Source: Candidatus Altiarchaeota archaeon
GTDB lineage: Archaea; Altiarchaeota; Altiarchaeia; IMC4; SCGC-AAA252-I15
Length of the DNA: 55,571 nucleotides
Assembly (NCBI GenBank): GCA_043804895.1
Contig: JAZDIN010000066.1
Coordinates: 1 to 55,571, forward strand
Reading direction: 5' to 3'
Shown here: positions 7,516-12,010 of the stretch, piece after piece
Position numbering within the stretch: the stretch's first letter is position 1
Layout: each line of letters opens with the position of its first letter
The notes under the pieces: generated by a model
Told to the model about the DNA's origin: nothing
The model's input: only the letters and a program-made list of their open reading frames with translations
The model's database searches: none
Made by a program: the position numbers and the translations under genes

Positions 7516-7953
7516 TTATTTCACCCTCCCAATCTGTTCCCTCAGGTGTCTCCTGCTTTGGAACAGGTTACCCTTAGCTTGTAAGTAAAACTTCCTGTAT
7601 TCTGTGGGGGTTATCTCCTTCTTCTCCCGCATCATGCGAAGCTCCTCCCTTATCGCCCTGATCTTGTTCATCCACTTCTTCTTCTCTGGGGTCCTCGCCT
7701 TGGCTGTTCCGCCCCTGCGGCCCATGCCCTTACTCCTGCCCTTGAGCTTCTGCTTCTTCCTGGCTCTCGCCCTCCCCCTGCTTATGCCCCTTTTCGGGTC
7801 CTTTTTGATTGCCCCTGATTTTATTAGCGAGCGTATGTCATCCTTTGTGAGGGCTTCAGACACTTCCTCAAGGCGTGCTGGGTCGAACTTGACCCTCGTC
7901 CTGCCCACCTTCATTATCGCGCCAGCAAGCCTCCTCGGGCCTTCGAACGTCAT
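7516..7953 (-). CDS. rpl19e: 50S ribosomal protein eL19
   Basis: RRLAGAIMKVG..RV, GISRGRAR, WMNKIRAIR and YRKFYLQAKG motifs. Confidence 0.97.
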   Translation of the reverse strand: MTFEGPRRLAGAIMKVGRTRVKFDPARLEEVSEALTKDDIRSLIKSGAIKKDPKRGISRGRARARKKQKLKGRSKGMGRRGGTAKARTPEKKKWMNKIRAIREELRMMREKKEITPTEYRKFYLQAKGNLFQSRRHLREQIGRVK

Positions 7954-8627
7954 GCCTCGCCCCTCCTCGGATTCAATATAGTTATCTTGAGCTTGTTCGC
8001 CTCTTCAATTATCATATTCCTCTTCCTGCGGCCGACAGCTGAGGCGATTACAGCAGCCTGTTTTTTAGAGTCTACCATGCTGAGGTCTTTCGTGTTGAAC
8101 ACCCGGACTGTTTTGAATCCGAAATGTAATTCGGATTCAGCCTTGGGTTTCTTGTACCCGATTGAAGGCAGGTACCCCTTACCCCTCTGCTTCTCCAGCT
8201 TCTTACTGTCTATGCCAGTCGGAGTCCTCCACTTGTCCTCAAGCTTCGTCTTCCTCGGCCGCGAATACTCCTGCCTTCTGAAGTGCGGTTTCGTCTTCTG
8301 GGATACCGCGTAATCCTTCGGCGGGAGATTAGTTATCTTGACTGGAGCGTGAACCGCCTTCAGCTTAGGCTCCTCCTTCTTTTCAGGAGCCTTAGGCTTC
8401 TTCTTGGCTTCCGGTTTCTTCTCTTCGACTGCTGGAGTCTCCTCAGGAGGCTTCTTCTCCTCGACCTTCGTCTTAGCCTCCTTCGGTTTGGCTGGCTTCA
8501 TCGCTTTCGGCGTCTTCTCTGACGGCTTCTTGACCGCTGGCGTCTTAGCTGCTGGCTTCTTCTCAGCCGCCTTTTTCTCTGTTGGCTTCTTAGCCGCCGC
8601 CTTAACCTTTGCCTTGCCCTCAGTCAT
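7950..8627 (-). CDS. rpl32e: 50S ribosomal protein eL32 with long Lys/Ala/Pro/Glu-rich N-terminal extension
   Basis: KPHFRRQE..WRTPTGIDSK, PSIGY and VGRRKR..ILNP motifs; lies between uL6 and eL19. Confidence 0.93.
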   Translation of the reverse strand: MTEGKAKVKAAAKKPTEKKAAEKKPAAKTPAVKKPSEKTPKAMKPAKPKEAKTKVEEKKPPEETPAVEEKKPEAKKKPKAPEKKEEPKLKAVHAPVKITNLPPKDYAVSQKTKPHFRRQEYSRPRKTKLEDKWRTPTGIDSKKLEKQRGKGYLPSIGYKKPKAESELHFGFKTVRVFNTKDLSMVDSKKQAAVIASAVGRRKRNMIIEEANKLKITILNPRRGEA

Positions 8628-8629
8628 CT

Positions 8630-9193
8630 TCAAATCACCGGCTTACTGTCTTTTTCGATTATGAATATCCCATCCTGGAAGACTCGAACGTCGAGTTTCT
8701 TTATCCAGGTCATCTGCTCTATGTTCGCCGCAGTCTGTCCCACGGCCTCCTTGTCTATCCCCGTTACTGTGACTTCGTTGCCCTTGACTTCCACCTTGAC
8801 GCCTTCAAGTATATTAGTCCTCCTTGGATACTTCTCGCCTAGGAAGTTGTCGACCACGAACTCGCTACCCTTAACCGCCGCCTTCATCGGGAAGTGCGAG
8901 TACATTATCCTGAGCTTGTAAACGTATCCTTCGGTCACGCCCTTCATCATGTTCCTGATATGGCCTGCTATCGTGCCCATGATAGCCATCTGCTTCCTGA
9001 GCGGGAAACGCTTCGTCCTAGCGTTAATCTTTAACTTGCCGCCCTCTTGGGTCATGCTGATGAAGTCCTCGCGGAACCTACGAGACACTGAGCCCTTCTT
9101 GCCCTTGACTGTGATGTTGCGGCCCTTCACGTCCACTTCCACGCCTTCAATCAGGTCGACCGTGAGCTCGCCTTCGTGCTTCTTCTCAGCCAT
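8630..9193 (-). CDS. rpl6: 50S ribosomal protein uL6
   Basis: YSHFPM, NFLGEKYPR, GQTAANIEQ and DVRVFQDGIFI motifs. Confidence 0.98.
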   Translation of the reverse strand: MAEKKHEGELTVDLIEGVEVDVKGRNITVKGKKGSVSRRFREDFISMTQEGGKLKINARTKRFPLRKQMAIMGTIAGHIRNMMKGVTEGYVYKLRIMYSHFPMKAAVKGSEFVVDNFLGEKYPRRTNILEGVKVEVKGNEVTVTGIDKEAVGQTAANIEQMTWIKKLDVRVFQDGIFIIEKDSKPVI

Positions 9194-9194
9194 C

Positions 9195-9584
9195 TTAGTA
9201 CGCGTAGGCTATCAGCCTTCCTCCCAAACCCTTCTCCTTAGCCTCATCATGGCTCATGATGCCCTTAGGAGTTGAAACAACCAGGAGGCCGAATCCTTTG
9301 GAGGGGAGGTATCTCTTCTCCCACTTGTCGAATTCGGCGAACTTGACCGGAAACCGCGGCTTGATGATACCGCAGTCGTTTATCTGCCGCACAAGCTTTA
9401 TCTTCACGTTTCCGCCCCTTGAGTTATCCACGACCTCGAACTCGCCGACGTACCCCCTCTTCTGGAATAACCGAAGCACGCTGAGGAGGAGCTTGCTCTT
9501 CGGGTAGACGACGCACTCGCTCTTCCCAGTCCTCTCCGCGTTCTTTATCACAGATACCGCGTCATTCAATGGGTCGTGTCTCAT
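9195..9584 (-). CDS. rps8: 30S ribosomal protein uS8
   Basis: DPLNDAVSVIKNAE, CGIIKPRF and VSTPKGIMSH..GGRLIAY motifs. Confidence 0.98.
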   Translation of the reverse strand: MRHDPLNDAVSVIKNAERTGKSECVVYPKSKLLLSVLRLFQKRGYVGEFEVVDNSRGGNVKIKLVRQINDCGIIKPRFPVKFAEFDKWEKRYLPSKGFGLLVVSTPKGIMSHDEAKEKGLGGRLIAYAY

Positions 9585-9587
9585 CTA

Positions 9588-10016
9588 CTACCTCTGAGGC
9601 TTCTCCTTCCTTCCGTGAACGAGCTCGTTCAAGGAGATGTCGTTGACTTTGATTACCTTATATCTGACTCCGGACAGGTCACCCATCGAACGGCCCTTCC
9701 TACCCCCAAGACCCTCAATGAGCACCTGATCGTGTTCTTCGATGAACGTGATGGCCCTGTTCCTGGGGGCGAACGCGGTGACCTGTCTGCCGTTCTTGAG
9801 TAGCTGAACCCTCACACACTTTCTGATTGCTGAGTTAGGCTGCTTCGCCTCAATGCCGACCTTCTCTAAGACAATACCCTTAGCCTGCGGCGCACCCTCA
9901 AGCGGGTCGTGCTTCTGCTTCAGCTTCATAACCCTCCGCGAGTAATCCGACTTACTCCAGCGGAAACTCTTGCGCGTGTCCTGCAGCTTCTTAGCTGCGA
10001 ATTCACCTTTACCCAT
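9588..10016 (-). CDS. rps12: 30S ribosomal protein uS12
   Basis: MGKGEFAA start; [19 protein letters not shown] motif. Confidence 0.98.
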
Positions 10017-10145
10017 ATTAGACTCGAAAACAGATTTTAAATCAAGCCGGCAGTGTTGGAACCCCACCAAACCAGGGTGGGCCACCAATTCACCAGCCCG
10101 ACAAAAAAACGGTAGATATATAATGTATGAAGAGTATAAAAACGC

Positions 10146-10346
10146 ATGAAGCCTTACGTCGACCAGGGCAGGTGTATCGGCTGCGGAGCCTGCGTTAAAG
10201 TATGCCCCATAACACCGAAGGTGGTGGAACTGAAGGACGTGAAAGATGGTAAGAGAGCTGTGATAGTCCACCCCGAACTGTGCGACCTAGGAAGAGCATG
10301 CGAAAGAGCCTGCCCAACAAAAGCGTTCAAATTCGTAAGAGACTAG
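10146..10346 (+). CDS. Dicluster ferredoxin (second motif [12 protein letters not shown] lacks one Cys)
   Basis: [12 protein letters not shown] and CxxGxxCxxxCP; TATATAA about 24 nt upstream. Confidence 0.9.
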
Positions 10347-10430
10347 ATTTATCCTCGGCCAGACTGATGAATCTATTTAATACTCCAGCGCCCGTTCCAG
10401 CTGCCACCCCAACTCTAAATGTAATGGAGT

Positions 10431-11081
10431 TTAGGTAGGTGTGCTGTTGAGTCGAGCGTTCGGGTTGCCGTGGTAGCCCAGTGATTCGTCGTTCATCAAG
10501 AGGGCGGCTAATGTGGGGGAGAATAGGGGTTCCTTCGAGTATATCATCTCCGTTATTTCACGGATGCTGTGCTTATGCGATTCACTAATCGCCTCCTCGA
10601 CAGTCTTTTGCTTCAGAAGCTCACGCACCACTGTGTTGGAGCAGTTGATTATCTTAGTCGCTATGGGATCCTTCTCTGGGTTACATTCCGTGTTGTGGTA
10701 TCTGGCAACCCAAAGTTTGTTCTTGTACCCGATAAAGGCGTCACATCCATGTTTCACAGCCTCCAAAGCCAGTTTTTTAAGGCTGTCGCATGCGCGGGCG
10801 AACGTCACCGTGCCCTTCAATAGATTAACCGAACCCATGTTTATGAATTCCCGCCTCTTGTTATCATGGAATGCACTGTCTGTGCCATGGCCATTGAAGA
10901 ATATGAATTGGTATTTGCCATTTCTTATACGTTTGTCGATGTTTTTGAAGTTCTTGTCTTCGCCCTCAACGCGGTCGACACGGTATCCACGGCTTTCAGC
11001 TTCAGGTATCAGAGGTTCCGTAAGCTTGTATAGGTAGTGGGTTGCGGTGTCGTGGTCTGTGCGGATGAACAGTAATGTCAT
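10431..11081 (-). CDS. Putative clan CD (caspase/gingipain/CHAT-like) cysteine peptidase
   Basis: FIFFNGHG (His65), VTFARAC (Cys98), GCDAFIGY and a C-terminal YHGNP resembling the C25 GDP motif. Confidence 0.7.
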   Translation of the reverse strand: MTLLFIRTDHDTATHYLYKLTEPLIPEAESRGYRVDRVEGEDKNFKNIDKRIRNGKYQFIFFNGHGTDSAFHDNKRREFINMGSVNLLKGTVTFARACDSLKKLALEAVKHGCDAFIGYKNKLWVARYHNTECNPEKDPIATKIINCSNTVVRELLKQKTVEEAISESHKHSIREITEMIYSKEPLFSPTLAALLMNDESLGYHGNPNARLNSTPT

Positions 11082-11296
11082 AGTGACTCGGTAAGCAGCT
11101 TTGGCATCATTCGTATGAAATTAACCTGCATCTCAATAGCTGCCTTGCCTACTTCAGTGCCATTGTCAACCTCATTGATAAGGTCTCTTGCAGTGTAGTC
11201 ACCAACTCCACCTAAGGAGAATGTGACATCCGGAGGCATCGCATCCAGCCGGGCCTTCACCAGCTCCTTGATGCTTTTATCATATTCGCCCATCAT
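11078..11296 (-). CDS. Small hypothetical protein (72 aa)
   Basis: ATGA overlaps with both neighbours; weak similarity to the upstream small ORF. Confidence 0.75.
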   Translation of the reverse strand: MMGEYDKSIKELVKARLDAMPPDVTFSLGGVGDYTARDLINEVDNGTEVGKAAIEMQVNFIRMMPKLLTESL

Positions 11297-11493
11297 ATCA
11301 GCCCCAGTTTGATTAGTTGTTTCAGTATGTTTTTGGCGTTCCTTCCGTCATGTTTCACTTCTGCGTGGGCAGCTGCCCAACTGAATGTTTCATCGCCGAC
11401 CAGTGCAACAATCTCTGTCCGCAGCGGATAGGGTATATTTGCATATAATTTAAGGAATTTCGCCTTTAATATTCCATATTCGACTGAATCCAT
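11293..11493 (-). CDS. Small hypothetical protein (66 aa)
   Basis: AGGTG SD before ATG 11493 (alternative GTG 11502); stop overlaps the next ATG; TATA-like TTATATA at about 11547-11553. Confidence 0.75.
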   Translation of the reverse strand: MDSVEYGILKAKFLKLYANIPYPLRTEIVALVGDETFSWAAAHAEVKHDGRNAKNILKQLIKLGLI

Positions 11494-11578
11494 GAGATAC
11501 ACCTAGTTACAGCCAACAAACGCTTATAGATGACTTTAGTAGGGCGTATATAATAATCCGTGTTTAGGTTTGAGGAGG

Positions 11579-12006
11579 TTAGACTGTTCTGAGTGTTAGT
11601 TCGTCTATGTTGCTGTGTCTTTTGGTGAGGGCTTTGGCGGCCTTTATCCTGGTTCCGTTGTGGCCTATGGCTTTGCTTCGGTCTGCCCTGGAGATTTCAA
11701 CGACCGCGACTTTATTGTCGGAGGTTTGTGCGATGTTTAGGCCGTGTATTTCGACTGGTGTGAAAAGGTTTCTGATGAACTGCTCCTCATCGTCGTTGTG
11801 TTCGAATATGAGTATGTTCTTGCCGAGTGCTGTGCGGGCTTTCTCGACGTTGCCGCCTTTTTTGCCGATGGCGAGGCCCATGTCGCCTGCCTTGACTAGG
11901 AAGCATAGTGTGTCGCCCTCCTGGAGGAAGTCCTTGACCTTCGCGCCGGTCATGGATTCGAAGAGGGTTATGTGCTTTATGTCGTCTGTGGTGAGCCTTA
12001 TCTTGT

Positions 12007-12010
<4 letters not shown>
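11579..12010 (-). CDS. nusA: Archaeal transcription factor NusA (two KH domains)
   Basis: FESMTGA..D, AIGKKGGNV and AIGHNG motifs; canonical position after eL30. Confidence 0.96.

What the first reader, a model, noticed from the sequence alone, without database searches (positions are those of the whole stretch)
10431..11555. Three-gene cassette: two small paralogues plus a caspase/gingipain-like protease, inserted between nusA and rps12
Seen in sequence: three translationally coupled ORFs (ATGA overlaps at 11293-11296 and 11078-11081) have their own TATA-like box and SD and are AT-richer than the flanks (hand-counted 60-nt lines: 23-24 G+C versus 31 in an rpoA1 line). The 216-aa protein has hydrophobic strand-His-Gly (FFNGHG) and strand-Ala-Cys (TFARAC), then G..AFIGY and a terminal GNP. 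Established knowledge: this is the motif layout of clan CD peptidases (C25 gingipain, CHAT, caspases). It has no signal peptide or sensor domain. The two roughly 70-aa proteins align with each other (FSWAAAHAEVKHDGRNAKNIL vs YTARDLINEVDNGTEVGKAAI; YANIP vs LDAMP). Inference: an uncharacterised protease-controlled module (defence/abortive infection, toxin-antitoxin or signalling) in which the small proteins are substrate, inhibitor or activator.
Basis: partly seen in the sequence, partly recalled or inferred. Interest (0 to 1): 0.82.

Follow-up and report, generated by a model that had tools for sequence, protein, structure and literature searches.

The report
Minimal caspase-like protease with two partners
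A three-gene cassette inserted into an archaeal ribosomal/transcription gene cluster encodes a new family of small caspase/gingipain-like cysteine protease and two tiny partner proteins; one partner is predicted to sit on the active site, and the trio recurs in ultra-small archaea and bacteria.

Summary
The three minus-strand ORFs are real: A 11293-11493, B 11078-11296, C 10431-11081. They have 4-nt ATGA overlaps and lower G+C than the flanks.

C (216 aa) matches no Pfam, NCBIfam or PADLOC model. Its AlphaFold model (pLDDT 91.6) has a clan CD caspase-hemoglobinase fold:
- RgpB Z 16.1
- SAVED-CHAT Z 15.9
- separase Z 13.3
- legumain Z 12.8

His65 and Cys98 sit at the ends of consecutive strands and are invariant in 53 of 53 full-length homologues.

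The A-B-C order holds in 58 of 61 loci from DPANN archaea and CPR bacteria. Two of the other three are cut by contig ends.

The module is accessory. It occurs in 10 of 61 genomes of the phylum and in 0 of 20 other genomes of the family. In 5 of 9 related loci NusA lies directly next to S12.

A three-chain model supports binding of C to the small proteins (ipSAE 0.89, best control 0.37). B lies over His65/Cys98 in a substrate-like way.

Paralogy of A and B is only weakly supported.

My best reading is a horizontally mobile protease module locked by a pseudosubstrate partner, of toxin-antitoxin or defence type. That function is untested.

The parts
11293..11493 (-). Gene A: 66-aa protein (ATG at 11493; the listed GTG ORF reaches 11502). 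Helix, beta-hairpin, two helices. Invariant F13, P21, R25, W39, E45.
   Evidence: ORF. 57 homologous ORFs lie directly upstream of B in other loci. AF2 model pLDDT 95.8. No fold match: best Foldseek E 1.1, best VIA Z 4.2. No Pfam family in 29 of 29 members.
11078..11296 (-). Gene B: 72-aa acidic protein, overlapping A's stop and C's start by 4 nt each. Invariant G29 and G50. Position 23 is D or N in 56 of 60. Position 36 is R or K in 53 of 60.
   Evidence: ORF. 59 homologous ORFs lie directly upstream of C. Column counts. Predicted to touch C residues 11-14, 64-67, 96-99, 121-130 and 173-199. No Pfam family in 29 of 29 members.
10431..11081 (-). Gene C: 216-aa single-domain clan CD cysteine peptidase of a family absent from Pfam, NCBIfam and PADLOC. 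Catalytic His65 (FFNGHG) and Cys98 (ARAC). An acidic residue at position 11 is the predicted S1 determinant.
11547..11556 (-). TATA-like A/T box (TTATTATATA) about 55 nt upstream of the A start codon, in the 85-nt gap after NusA.
   Evidence: Read from the sequence. Promoter function is not tested.
11500..11504 (-). Shine-Dalgarno-like AGGTG, 6 nt before the ATG of gene A.
   Evidence: Read from the sequence. Not tested.

Best explanation
The cassette is a horizontally acquired, self-contained operon.

What each gene encodes:
- Gene C encodes a minimal, stand-alone clan CD cysteine endopeptidase. Its fold is closest to the gingipain catalytic subdomain, CHAT and separase.
- Gene B encodes a small acidic protein, translated just before C. 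B binds across the substrate cleft. Its beta-strand (residues 23-29) pairs with the loop after strand 5 of C (121-130), as substrates and peptide inhibitors do in clan CD enzymes. Its last helix packs on C helix 187-200, covering His65/Cys98.
- B therefore acts as a trans-encoded pseudosubstrate lock. The nearest analogies are the gingipain prodomain, securin on separase, or a type II antitoxin.
- Gene A encodes a small protein of similar layout. It mainly joins B and touches C only through its conserved P21-R25 loop.

Proposed mechanism: when the lock is lost or cleaved, the protease is free to cut cellular or invader proteins. It probably cuts after Arg or Lys, because position 11, at the place of the S1 determinant, is always Asp or Glu. 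The module would thus work as a toxin-antitoxin or abortive-infection type cassette that moves among DPANN archaea and CPR bacteria.

What is shown by computation: the fold, the conserved dyad, the conserved gene order, the patchy distribution and the predicted interface.

What is inferred: inhibition rather than processing, the P1 preference, toxicity and the trigger.
For: Fold:
- AF2 model pLDDT 91.6.
- RgpB Z 16.1, SAVED-CHAT Z 15.9, Kgp Z 13.9, separase Z 13.3, legumain Z 12.8, MALT1 Z 12.4. The Foldseek list agrees.

Catalytic dyad:
- His65 lies at the end of strand 59-67 and Cys98 just after strand 92-97. This is the clan CD arrangement described in PMC4357240 (passages read).
- H65, G66 and C98 are invariant in 53 of 53 homologues. 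Position 11 is D in 51 and E in 2.
- In RgpB, MALT1 and caspase-7 the P1-binding residue lies on L1/alpha1, just after strand 1 (PMC4357240).

Operon:
- Both junctions are ATGA overlaps.
- The gap from the stop of B to the aligned start of C is within 30 nt in 55 of 57 loci.
- A-B-C order holds in 58 of 61 loci.

Binding:
- ipSAE 0.89, 0.88 and 0.89 in three runs; best of 3 controls 0.37. That mark was reached by 58 of 80 solved complexes and 2 of 110 mismatched pairs.
- Runs agree in at least 91% of contacts. Partner pLDDT is at least 88.
- With B replaced by an unrelated protein the score fell to 0.00.
- No solved relative of A, B or C exists by sequence, so the pass is unlikely to come from memory.
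- Conserved residues of C (D11, T14, Y16, L17, G64-G66, C98, I180, Y181, P185) and of B (P21, D/N23, S27, G29, T35, R/K36) fall in the predicted interface.

Accessory and mobile behaviour:
- Present in 10 of 61 genomes of the phylum, 0 of 4 other genomes of the genus and 0 of 20 of the family.
- Present in 7 of 101 and 3 of 101 genomes in two other orders, with up to 3 copies per genome.
- NusA is directly next to S12 in 5 of 9 relatives.
- G+C is lower than in the flanks.
- The window's C groups with sequences from other archaeal phyla.
- By my own classing of Pfam names, 18 of 55 loci have a toxin-antitoxin, restriction, Fic, IS or similar gene among the four nearest genes.
Against: - No hit to any PADLOC defence model, no PHROG and no relative in viral contigs.
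- Many loci lie among housekeeping genes: tRNA synthetases, ribosomal proteins, UvrAB, thermosome.
- The predicted pose cannot tell an inhibitor from a substrate.
- No sensor or trigger is evident.
- A shows no recognisable DNA-binding fold for autoregulation.
- The excess of disrupted C copies is not significant. Seven of 8 disruptions fall in C, but C makes up about 61% of the coding length.
- The restriction to ultra-small symbionts could point instead to a lifestyle function.
- The complex score comes from a three-chain job with my own alignments, unlike the tool's calibration.
Confidence: 0.45

Rival explanations
1. Processing system. B, and perhaps A, is the physiological substrate or precursor. 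C cleaves it once to release an active small protein or peptide, such as a signal, a regulator or a surface or host-interaction factor. The module is then a maturation pair, not a toxin lock.
For: - B is predicted to lie in the cleft in a substrate-like strand pairing with C 121-130, touching H65 and C98.
- B carries a conserved basic residue at position 36 (R or K in 53 of 60) and D or N at position 23 (56 of 60), both within the interface.
- Clan CD enzymes are strict P1-specific processing enzymes (PMC4357240).
Against: - The window's own B has Ala at position 36, with Arg at 37.
- B and A are compact folded domains with conserved cores, not variable peptides.
- The patchy, multi-copy, laterally moving distribution fits a conflict module better than a maturation pathway.
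Confidence: 0.25
2. Lifestyle or housekeeping protease of ultra-small episymbionts. It would be a regulated intracellular protease for protein turnover, cell-surface maturation or host interaction, with A and B as regulatory subunits, shared between DPANN and CPR because of their similar biology.
For: - Nearly all 61 loci come from records titled as DPANN archaea or CPR/Patescibacteria.
- Many loci lie beside translation, repair or chaperone genes.
- In the window it sits in the rpo-NusA-S12 cluster.
Against: - It is found in only 10 of 61, 7 of 101 and 3 of 101 genomes of the three groups sampled, and in 0 of 20 other genomes of the window's family.
- No neighbour is conserved.
- None of the three proteins has a signal peptide or membrane segment.
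Confidence: 0.15
3. C is not a hydrolytic protease but a transpeptidase or ligase, as some legumain-like enzymes and the gingipain-like type IX sortase are. It would join or cyclise A and/or B.
For: Legumain-type peptide asparaginyl ligases appear among the fold matches at Z 11.5-12.0. B position 23 is D or N in 56 of 60.
Against: These matches are weaker than those to gingipain, CHAT and separase. Nothing specific in the sequence points to ligation. The always-acidic position 11 suggests a basic P1.
Confidence: 0.05

Closest known systems
Gingipain R/K catalytic subdomain (MEROPS C25, clan CD) with its inhibitory prodomain
   Same: - Best structural match: 4ief_D Z 16.1, rmsd 2.6 over 177 residues; 1cvr Z 13.8; Kgp Z 13.9.
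- The His-to-Cys spacing of 33 residues matches my recalled RgpB His211/Cys244; the review passage I read prints His221/Cys244.
- An acidic residue lies after strand 1, where RgpB Asp163 binds the P1 Arg (PMC4357240).
- An inhibitory polypeptide covering the active site is the proposed role of B.
   Different: - No sequence match: 0 of 27 members hit any clan CD Pfam model at E up to 1.
- No N-terminal subdomain, Ig-like domain, signal peptide or secretion domain.
- The proposed inhibitor is a separate gene product with a different, unmatched fold.
- The protein is cytoplasmic and found in archaea and CPR bacteria.
CHAT-domain proteases of prokaryotic immunity (SAVED-CHAT, TPR-CHAT/Csx29, DdvA)
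   Same: Second-best fold match: 8tl0_C Z 15.9, DdvA Z 12.0, Csx29 Z 11.5. These are effector proteases of conflict systems that stay inactive until triggered.
   Different: - Those proteases are fused to sensor or scaffold domains (SAVED, TPR, transmembrane). C is a bare 216-aa domain.
- No longer fused relatives were found (weak evidence). All of the best 150 relatives are 246 aa or shorter.
- There is no CRISPR or CBASS context and no Pfam CHAT match.
Separase-securin
   Same: A clan CD protease (Z 12.4-13.3) is held inactive by a separately encoded pseudosubstrate partner that binds along the substrate cleft. The tight coupling of B and C would allow binding as C is made.
   Different: Separase is a eukaryotic protein of more than 1000 residues with large helical domains. 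Securin is disordered, whereas B is a small folded domain. There is no sequence relationship.
Type II / tripartite toxin-antitoxin modules
   Same: A small, tightly packed, self-contained operon. Patchy, multi-copy, laterally spread distribution. A small acidic partner is predicted to bind the enzyme's active site. Other toxin-antitoxin genes are frequent neighbours.
   Different: In my four literature searches I found no toxin-antitoxin family whose toxin is a clan CD protease. Toxicity, neutralisation and autoregulation are all untested. There are two small partners, and neither has a recognised DNA-binding fold.

Membership tests
Clan CD cysteine peptidases (caspase-hemoglobinase fold) | Alpha/beta/alpha sandwich fold shared with caspases, legumain, gingipain and separase | tested here: met
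   AF2 pLDDT 91.6. VIA Z 16.1 (RgpB, rmsd 2.6, 177 aligned), 15.9 (CHAT), 13.3 (separase), 12.8 (legumain), 12.4 (MALT1), about 11 (caspases). Foldseek E 8.8e-6 for 8tl0.
Clan CD cysteine peptidases (caspase-hemoglobinase fold) | His then Cys catalytic dyad, at the C-terminal ends of consecutive strands (beta3, beta4), in His-Gly and Ala/Ser-Cys motifs | tested here: met
   Strands 59-67 and 92-97 end at H65-G66 and C98. H65, G66 and C98 are invariant in 53 of 53; position 97 is A or S in 52 of 53. Criterion as given in PMC4357240.
Clan CD cysteine peptidases (caspase-hemoglobinase fold) | Peptide-bond hydrolysis with strict P1 specificity | not testable with these tools
   Only inferred. The acidic residue at position 11 (D 51, E 2 of 53), at the L1/alpha1 site, suggests Arg or Lys at P1.
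Gingipain family C25 (Pfam Peptidase_C25) | Sequence match to the family model | tested here: not met
   0 of 27 members match it, or any clan CD model, at E up to 1. The profile finds no PDB sequence at E up to 10.
Gingipain family C25 (Pfam Peptidase_C25) | Secreted multi-domain architecture (prodomain, two catalytic subdomains, Ig-like domain) | tested here: not met
   The protein is a single 216-aa domain aligned only to RgpB residues 372-581 / 143-352. Its N-terminus is strand 1, not a signal peptide.
CHAT domain proteases (Pfam PF12770; accession recalled) | Sequence match to the CHAT model and fusion to sensor or repeat domains | tested here: not met
   No Pfam match. Relatives are all about 200-246 aa. 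No longer forms were found (weak evidence).
Caspases / metacaspases / orthocaspases (C14) | Sequence match to Peptidase_C14 with a p20/p10 organisation | tested here: not met
   No Pfam match. Fold matches to caspases (Z about 11) are weaker than those to gingipain, CHAT and separase.
Type II toxin-antitoxin module | Tightly linked small operon with patchy, laterally spread distribution | tested here: met
Type II toxin-antitoxin module | The antitoxin binds the toxin directly | tested here: inconclusive
   The model supports binding: ipSAE 0.89 against a best control of 0.37. This is a prediction, not a measurement, and it cannot separate inhibitor from substrate.
Type II toxin-antitoxin module | The toxin arrests growth and the antitoxin neutralises it | not testable with these tools
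   Needs expression experiments.
Known anti-phage defence systems (PADLOC-DB 2.0) | Match of any component to a defence-system model | tested here: not met
   0 families for A, B and C at E up to 1.

The most novel reading that the evidence does not exclude
This is a previously undescribed kind of protease-based conflict module. A bare, ancestral-like clan CD (caspase/separase/gingipain-type) protease is kept locked by a dedicated two-protein pseudosubstrate clamp of novel fold. The module is exchanged across the domain boundary between DPANN archaea and CPR bacteria. To my knowledge it would be the first toxin-antitoxin or abortive-infection system with a caspase-like toxin and no sensor domain, and a minimal model of how separase/securin-type control arose.
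Probability: 0.3. Interest if true: 0.82.

Novelty: new variant of a known kind. Interest (0 to 1): 0.64.

Why it matters
Clan CD proteases (caspases, separase, gingipains, CHAT effectors) carry out irreversible decisions in cell death, the cell cycle, virulence and prokaryotic immunity. Almost all known prokaryotic ones are fused to sensors or secretion domains.

Here there is a family of about 500 sequence clusters. Each member is just the catalytic core, always encoded with two tiny partners of unknown fold. It is not covered by Pfam, NCBIfam or PADLOC.

If B is a trans-acting pseudosubstrate lock, the system is a very small and tractable model for how such proteases are held in check. It would also be a new class of toxin-antitoxin or defence module in the least-studied microbes (DPANN and CPR), with evidence of exchange between the two domains.

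Even on the more modest reading, it defines three new protein families and a testable protease-partner complex.

Tried and rejected
- Sequence libraries. Pfam, NCBIfam, PADLOC and PHROGs gave nothing for A, B or C. The single PHROG row had E 0.096. Scanning every member of the three alignments against Pfam gave only scattered chance rows.
- PDB by sequence. Single sequences and profiles gave no hit better than E 0.2. The S100-like stretch in B (E 0.32) and a 22-residue match in A (E 0.22) were set aside as chance.
- Word-index search with B alone found only itself. B and A relatives had to be found through their position next to C.
- Fold of A. No Foldseek match (best E 1.1). The best VIA Z was 4.2; POU/XRE-type helix-turn-helix rows at Z 3.3-3.8 are within noise. 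I therefore do not call A a DNA-binding protein.
- ESM Atlas gave only unnamed clusters.
- Paralogy of A and B. Tested by BLASTP, hhalign and shuffles; left open.
- Virus link. No relatives in viral contigs by pattern scan.
- Fused forms. None found among longer proteins (weak evidence).
- Flanking repeats or target duplications around the insert: only short chance-level repeats. The sigma-70 and terminator scan was at background and is not suited to archaea.
- Expression. No RNA holder was listed for the stretch, and only three DNA runs held small shares.
- Bias of gene disruptions towards C. Seven of 8 fall in C. This is not significant given gene lengths, and assembly errors cannot be excluded.
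- Earlier notes of this scan: none near the place or like the sequence.
- Literature. Four full-text searches and a term search within PMC8204110 found no description of this family. Supplementary tables of the DPANN/CPR protein-family papers, which I could not see, may list it as an unnamed family.
Full report
**What is in the window**

On the minus strand, between the NusA-type KH protein (11579-12010; Pfam KH_5 E 8e-11) and ribosomal protein S12 (ORF 9588-10271, S12 homology from about 10031), lie three ORFs:
- A: 11293-11502 as listed. A probably starts at the ATG at 11493, giving 66 aa, the length and N-terminus of its homologues.
- B: 11078-11296, 72 aa.
- C: 10431-11081, 216 aa.

The + strand reads tcat at both 11293-11296 and 11078-11081, so both junctions are ATGA overlaps. 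Upstream of A, on the minus strand, there is TTATTATATA at 11547-11556 and AGGTG at 11500-11504, 6 nt before the ATG.

G+C is 0.445-0.48 across the cassette, against 0.50-0.55 on either side. A small 2x[4Fe-4S] ferredoxin gene (10146-10346, + strand) lies convergent to C.

**The cassette is an insertion**

The genome holds one copy.

I searched 21 genomes of the window's family with NusA and looked at 9 loci from other genomes.
- In 5 (L065, L069-L072) NusA is followed directly by S12.
- In 3 (L066-L068) other genes follow NusA. I read two of these; they encode Thr/Ser-rich proteins.
- One is cut by the contig end.

The peptidase is found in 10 of 61 genomes of the phylum, counting the window's own. 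It is in 0 of 4 other genomes of the genus and 0 of 20 of the family. No flanking repeats beyond chance were seen.

**Protein C is a clan CD peptidase of an undescribed family**

Pfam, NCBIfam and PADLOC give no hit at E up to 1. None of 27 family members hits any clan CD Pfam model. A profile finds no PDB sequence.

The family itself is sizeable. There are 67 proteins in the word-indexed search. There are 496 representatives at E up to 1e-3 in the library clustered at 50% identity, and the best 150 are all 96-246 aa long. No longer fused forms were found (weak evidence).

AlphaFold2 with a 27-sequence alignment gives pLDDT 91.6 and pTM 0.90.
- Foldseek's best PDB hits are SAVED-CHAT (E 8.8e-6), caspase-4 and -8, gingipain R, legumain and MALT1.
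- VIA-align on those candidates gives:
  - RgpB Z 16.1 (rmsd 2.6, 177 aligned)
  - SAVED-CHAT Z 15.9
  - Kgp Z 13.9
  - separase Z 13.3
  - legumain Z 12.8
  - MALT1 Z 12.4
  - DdvA Z 12.0
  - Csx29 Z 11.5
  - caspases about Z 11

His65 ends strand 59-67 and Cys98 follows strand 92-97. A review of the clan places the dyad in exactly this position (PMC4357240, passages read).

In 53 full-length homologues from archaea and bacteria, H65, G66, C98 and Y119 are invariant, and position 11 is Asp in 51 and Glu in 2. Position 11 lies between strand 1 and helix 1. This is the region (L1/alpha1) that carries the P1-binding residue in caspase-7 (Arg87), MALT1 (Asp365) and RgpB (Asp163), according to the same review. 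From this I infer, without a test, a preference for Arg or Lys at P1.

**The triplet is conserved**

A pattern scan of one genome per species returned 56 loci. Nearly all come from records titled as one of these groups:
- DPANN archaea: Woesearchaeota, Nanoarchaeia, Micrarchaeota, Iainarchaeum, Altiarchaeota, Aenigmatarchaeota.
- CPR/Patescibacteria: Levyibacteriota, Roizmanbacteria, Saccharibacteria, Woesebacteria and others.

Profiles built from the window's A and B found an A ORF and a B ORF directly upstream of C, on the same strand, in 52 of 56 loci. They found B in 54 of 56.

The exceptions are:
- L004 and L011, where the contig ends.
- L026, where A is present but frameshifted.
- L056, a very distant homologue without A or B.

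All 5 further loci from the window's phylum also have A-B-C. Overall that is 58 of 61.

The distance from the stop of B to the aligned start of C is within 30 nt in 55 of 57 loci.

Beyond the triplet nothing is conserved. I scanned 191 neighbouring ORFs.
- Some are housekeeping genes: GlyRS, AlaRS, ribosomal proteins, eIF2-alpha, UvrA/B, thermosome.
- Some are mobile or conflict genes: TumE, HicAB, MazE, CopG antitoxin, PIN, Fic, an Eco57I-type methylase, a Schlafen-type helicase, IS110 transposase, DUF4062, and nucleotidyltransferase domains (Pfam Polbeta/NTP_transf_2) of the kind found in MNT-type antitoxins.
- By my own classing of Pfam names, 18 of 55 loci have at least one conflict or mobile gene among the four nearest genes.

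**Distribution and history**

The module is sporadic and sometimes multi-copy. It is in 7 of 101 genomes of the order around one Woesearchaeota locus, with 2, 2 and 3 copies in three of them. It is in 3 of 101 genomes of the order around one CPR locus.

A quick maximum-likelihood tree of 53 C sequences shows the following:
- The window's protein sits in a well-supported group (SH-aLRT 99) of 16 archaeal or unnamed rows. Its nearest rows come from several differently titled archaeal phyla.
- 19 of 21 bacterial rows fall in one group (support 88) that also holds two archaeal rows.
- Genomes of the window's own phylum appear in two distant parts of the tree.
- The domain label needs at least 2-4 changes.

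This pattern fits lateral spread, not vertical inheritance of a core gene.

**The small proteins**

Neither A nor B has a Pfam family, a PDB relative by sequence or a named Atlas cluster.

A folds with high confidence (pLDDT 95.8) as helix 3-18, hairpin 28-38, then helices 39-47 and 53-62. This model matches nothing in the PDB: best Foldseek E 1.1 and best VIA Z 4.2.

Conserved positions are as follows.
- A: invariant F13, R25, W39 and E45; P21 in 56 of 58.
- B: invariant G29 and G50; R16 in 55 of 59; D or N at position 23 in 56 of 60; R or K at position 36 in 53 of 60. The window's B has Ala36-Arg37.

Whether A and B are paralogues stays open.
- BLASTP is not significant.
- The score of 25.1 is matched by 2 of 200 column shuffles and 13 of 200 block shuffles.

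**Predicted complex**

I submitted A, B and C with their alignments, scoring C against the other two.
- ipSAE was 0.89, 0.88 and 0.89 in three runs. The best of 3 controls was 0.37.
- That mark was reached by 58 of 80 solved complexes and 2 of 110 mismatched pairs in the tool's calibration. The calibration holds only roughly here, because I used my own alignments and three chains.
- The runs agree in at least 91% of contacts, and the partner's pLDDT is at least 88.
- When B was replaced by an unrelated protein the score fell to 0.00. B therefore carries the interface.

The interface residues are:
- B residues 20-36 and 49-72 touch C residues 11-14, 16-17, 64-67, 96-99, 121-130 and 173-199. These include D11, H65 and C98.
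- The most confident pairs are B 24-27 with C 124-127, and B 55-63 with C 188-196.
- A touches C only through residues 21, 23-24 and 27.

C 121-130 is the loop after strand 5 (115-119). The review describes the equivalent caspase element (L5) as forming a short sheet with bound inhibitor. B is therefore predicted to occupy the cleft as a substrate or a pseudosubstrate would.

No relative of this complex has been solved, so the pass is unlikely to come from memory. It remains a model's confidence, not a measurement.

**Interpretation**

Shown by computation:
- a new single-domain clan CD peptidase family with an intact, invariant dyad;
- two dedicated small partners, always co-encoded;
- accessory, laterally spread occurrence, restricted in these data to DPANN and CPR;
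- a confident predicted interface in which B covers the active site.

Inferred: B is a trans-encoded lock (pseudosubstrate inhibitor) and A its accessory subunit. Release of C would then give an Arg/Lys-directed protease that damages the cell or an invader. That is a toxin-antitoxin or abortive-infection logic (confidence about 0.45).

Main rivals:
- B and/or A are true substrates that C matures (0.25).
- A lifestyle-related regulated protease of episymbionts (0.15).
- A transpeptidase (0.05).

Evidence against the defence reading:
- There are no PADLOC, PHROG or viral hits.
- Many loci lie among housekeeping genes.
- No sensor is evident.
- Disrupted copies do not favour C significantly. Frameshifts occur in L012, L027 (same sequence as L060) and L052-L055, and an in-frame deletion removes the Cys segment in L023. 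But 7 of 8 disruptions against about 61% of the coding length is not significant, and assembly errors are possible.

**Comparison with what is known, and novelty**

It works most like gingipain with its prodomain, separase with securin, or a type II toxin-antitoxin pair.

It is a member of clan CD by fold and dyad. It is not a member of C25, C14 or CHAT by sequence or by architecture.

Four full-text searches and a term search in one DPANN protein-family paper found no description of it.

I rate it a new variant of a known kind, with interest 0.64.

Noticed in passing
window 10146-10346 (+): A 66-aa 2x[4Fe-4S] ferredoxin gene lies convergent to the cassette. It also has lowered G+C (0.475 in 10000-10399). 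No match to it was found in any of the nine related NusA loci, including the five where NusA directly adjoins S12. It may have arrived with the cassette or separately.
   Followed up: partly
window 7950-10271 (-): S12 is followed directly by S8 (9195-9584), L6 (8630-9193) and an L32e-like protein with a long Lys/Pro/Glu-rich N-terminal extension (7950-8633), not by S7 and EF-2. The S12-S8 adjacency recurs in related genomes (L065, L069-L072). The protein names are my reading of the translations; no tool search confirmed them.
   Followed up: partly
L012, L023, L026, L027 (same sequence as L060), L052-L055: Disrupted copies of the module elsewhere. C is frameshifted in six distinct loci. In L023 an in-frame deletion removes the segment with the catalytic Cys. 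In L026 A is frameshifted. B is intact everywhere. This could be pseudogenisation or assembly error.
   Followed up: partly
L056:3716-4357: A very distant stand-alone homologue of C, on a contig titled Spirochaetes, has no A or B genes. It sits beside Vsr endonuclease, RhuM-family and HATPase_c_3 genes, a context typical of defence islands.
   Followed up: no
L066:1926-2669 and L068:1936-2685: In two genomes of the window's genus, the gene after NusA encodes a Thr/Ser/Pro-rich protein with a hydrophobic N-terminal segment, not S12. The NusA-S12 junction therefore appears to be a recurrent site of gene-order change in this lineage.
   Followed up: no
G061, G134, G140 (genome search handles): Some Woesearchaeota-order genomes carry 2-3 diverged copies of the peptidase gene on different contigs.
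   Followed up: no
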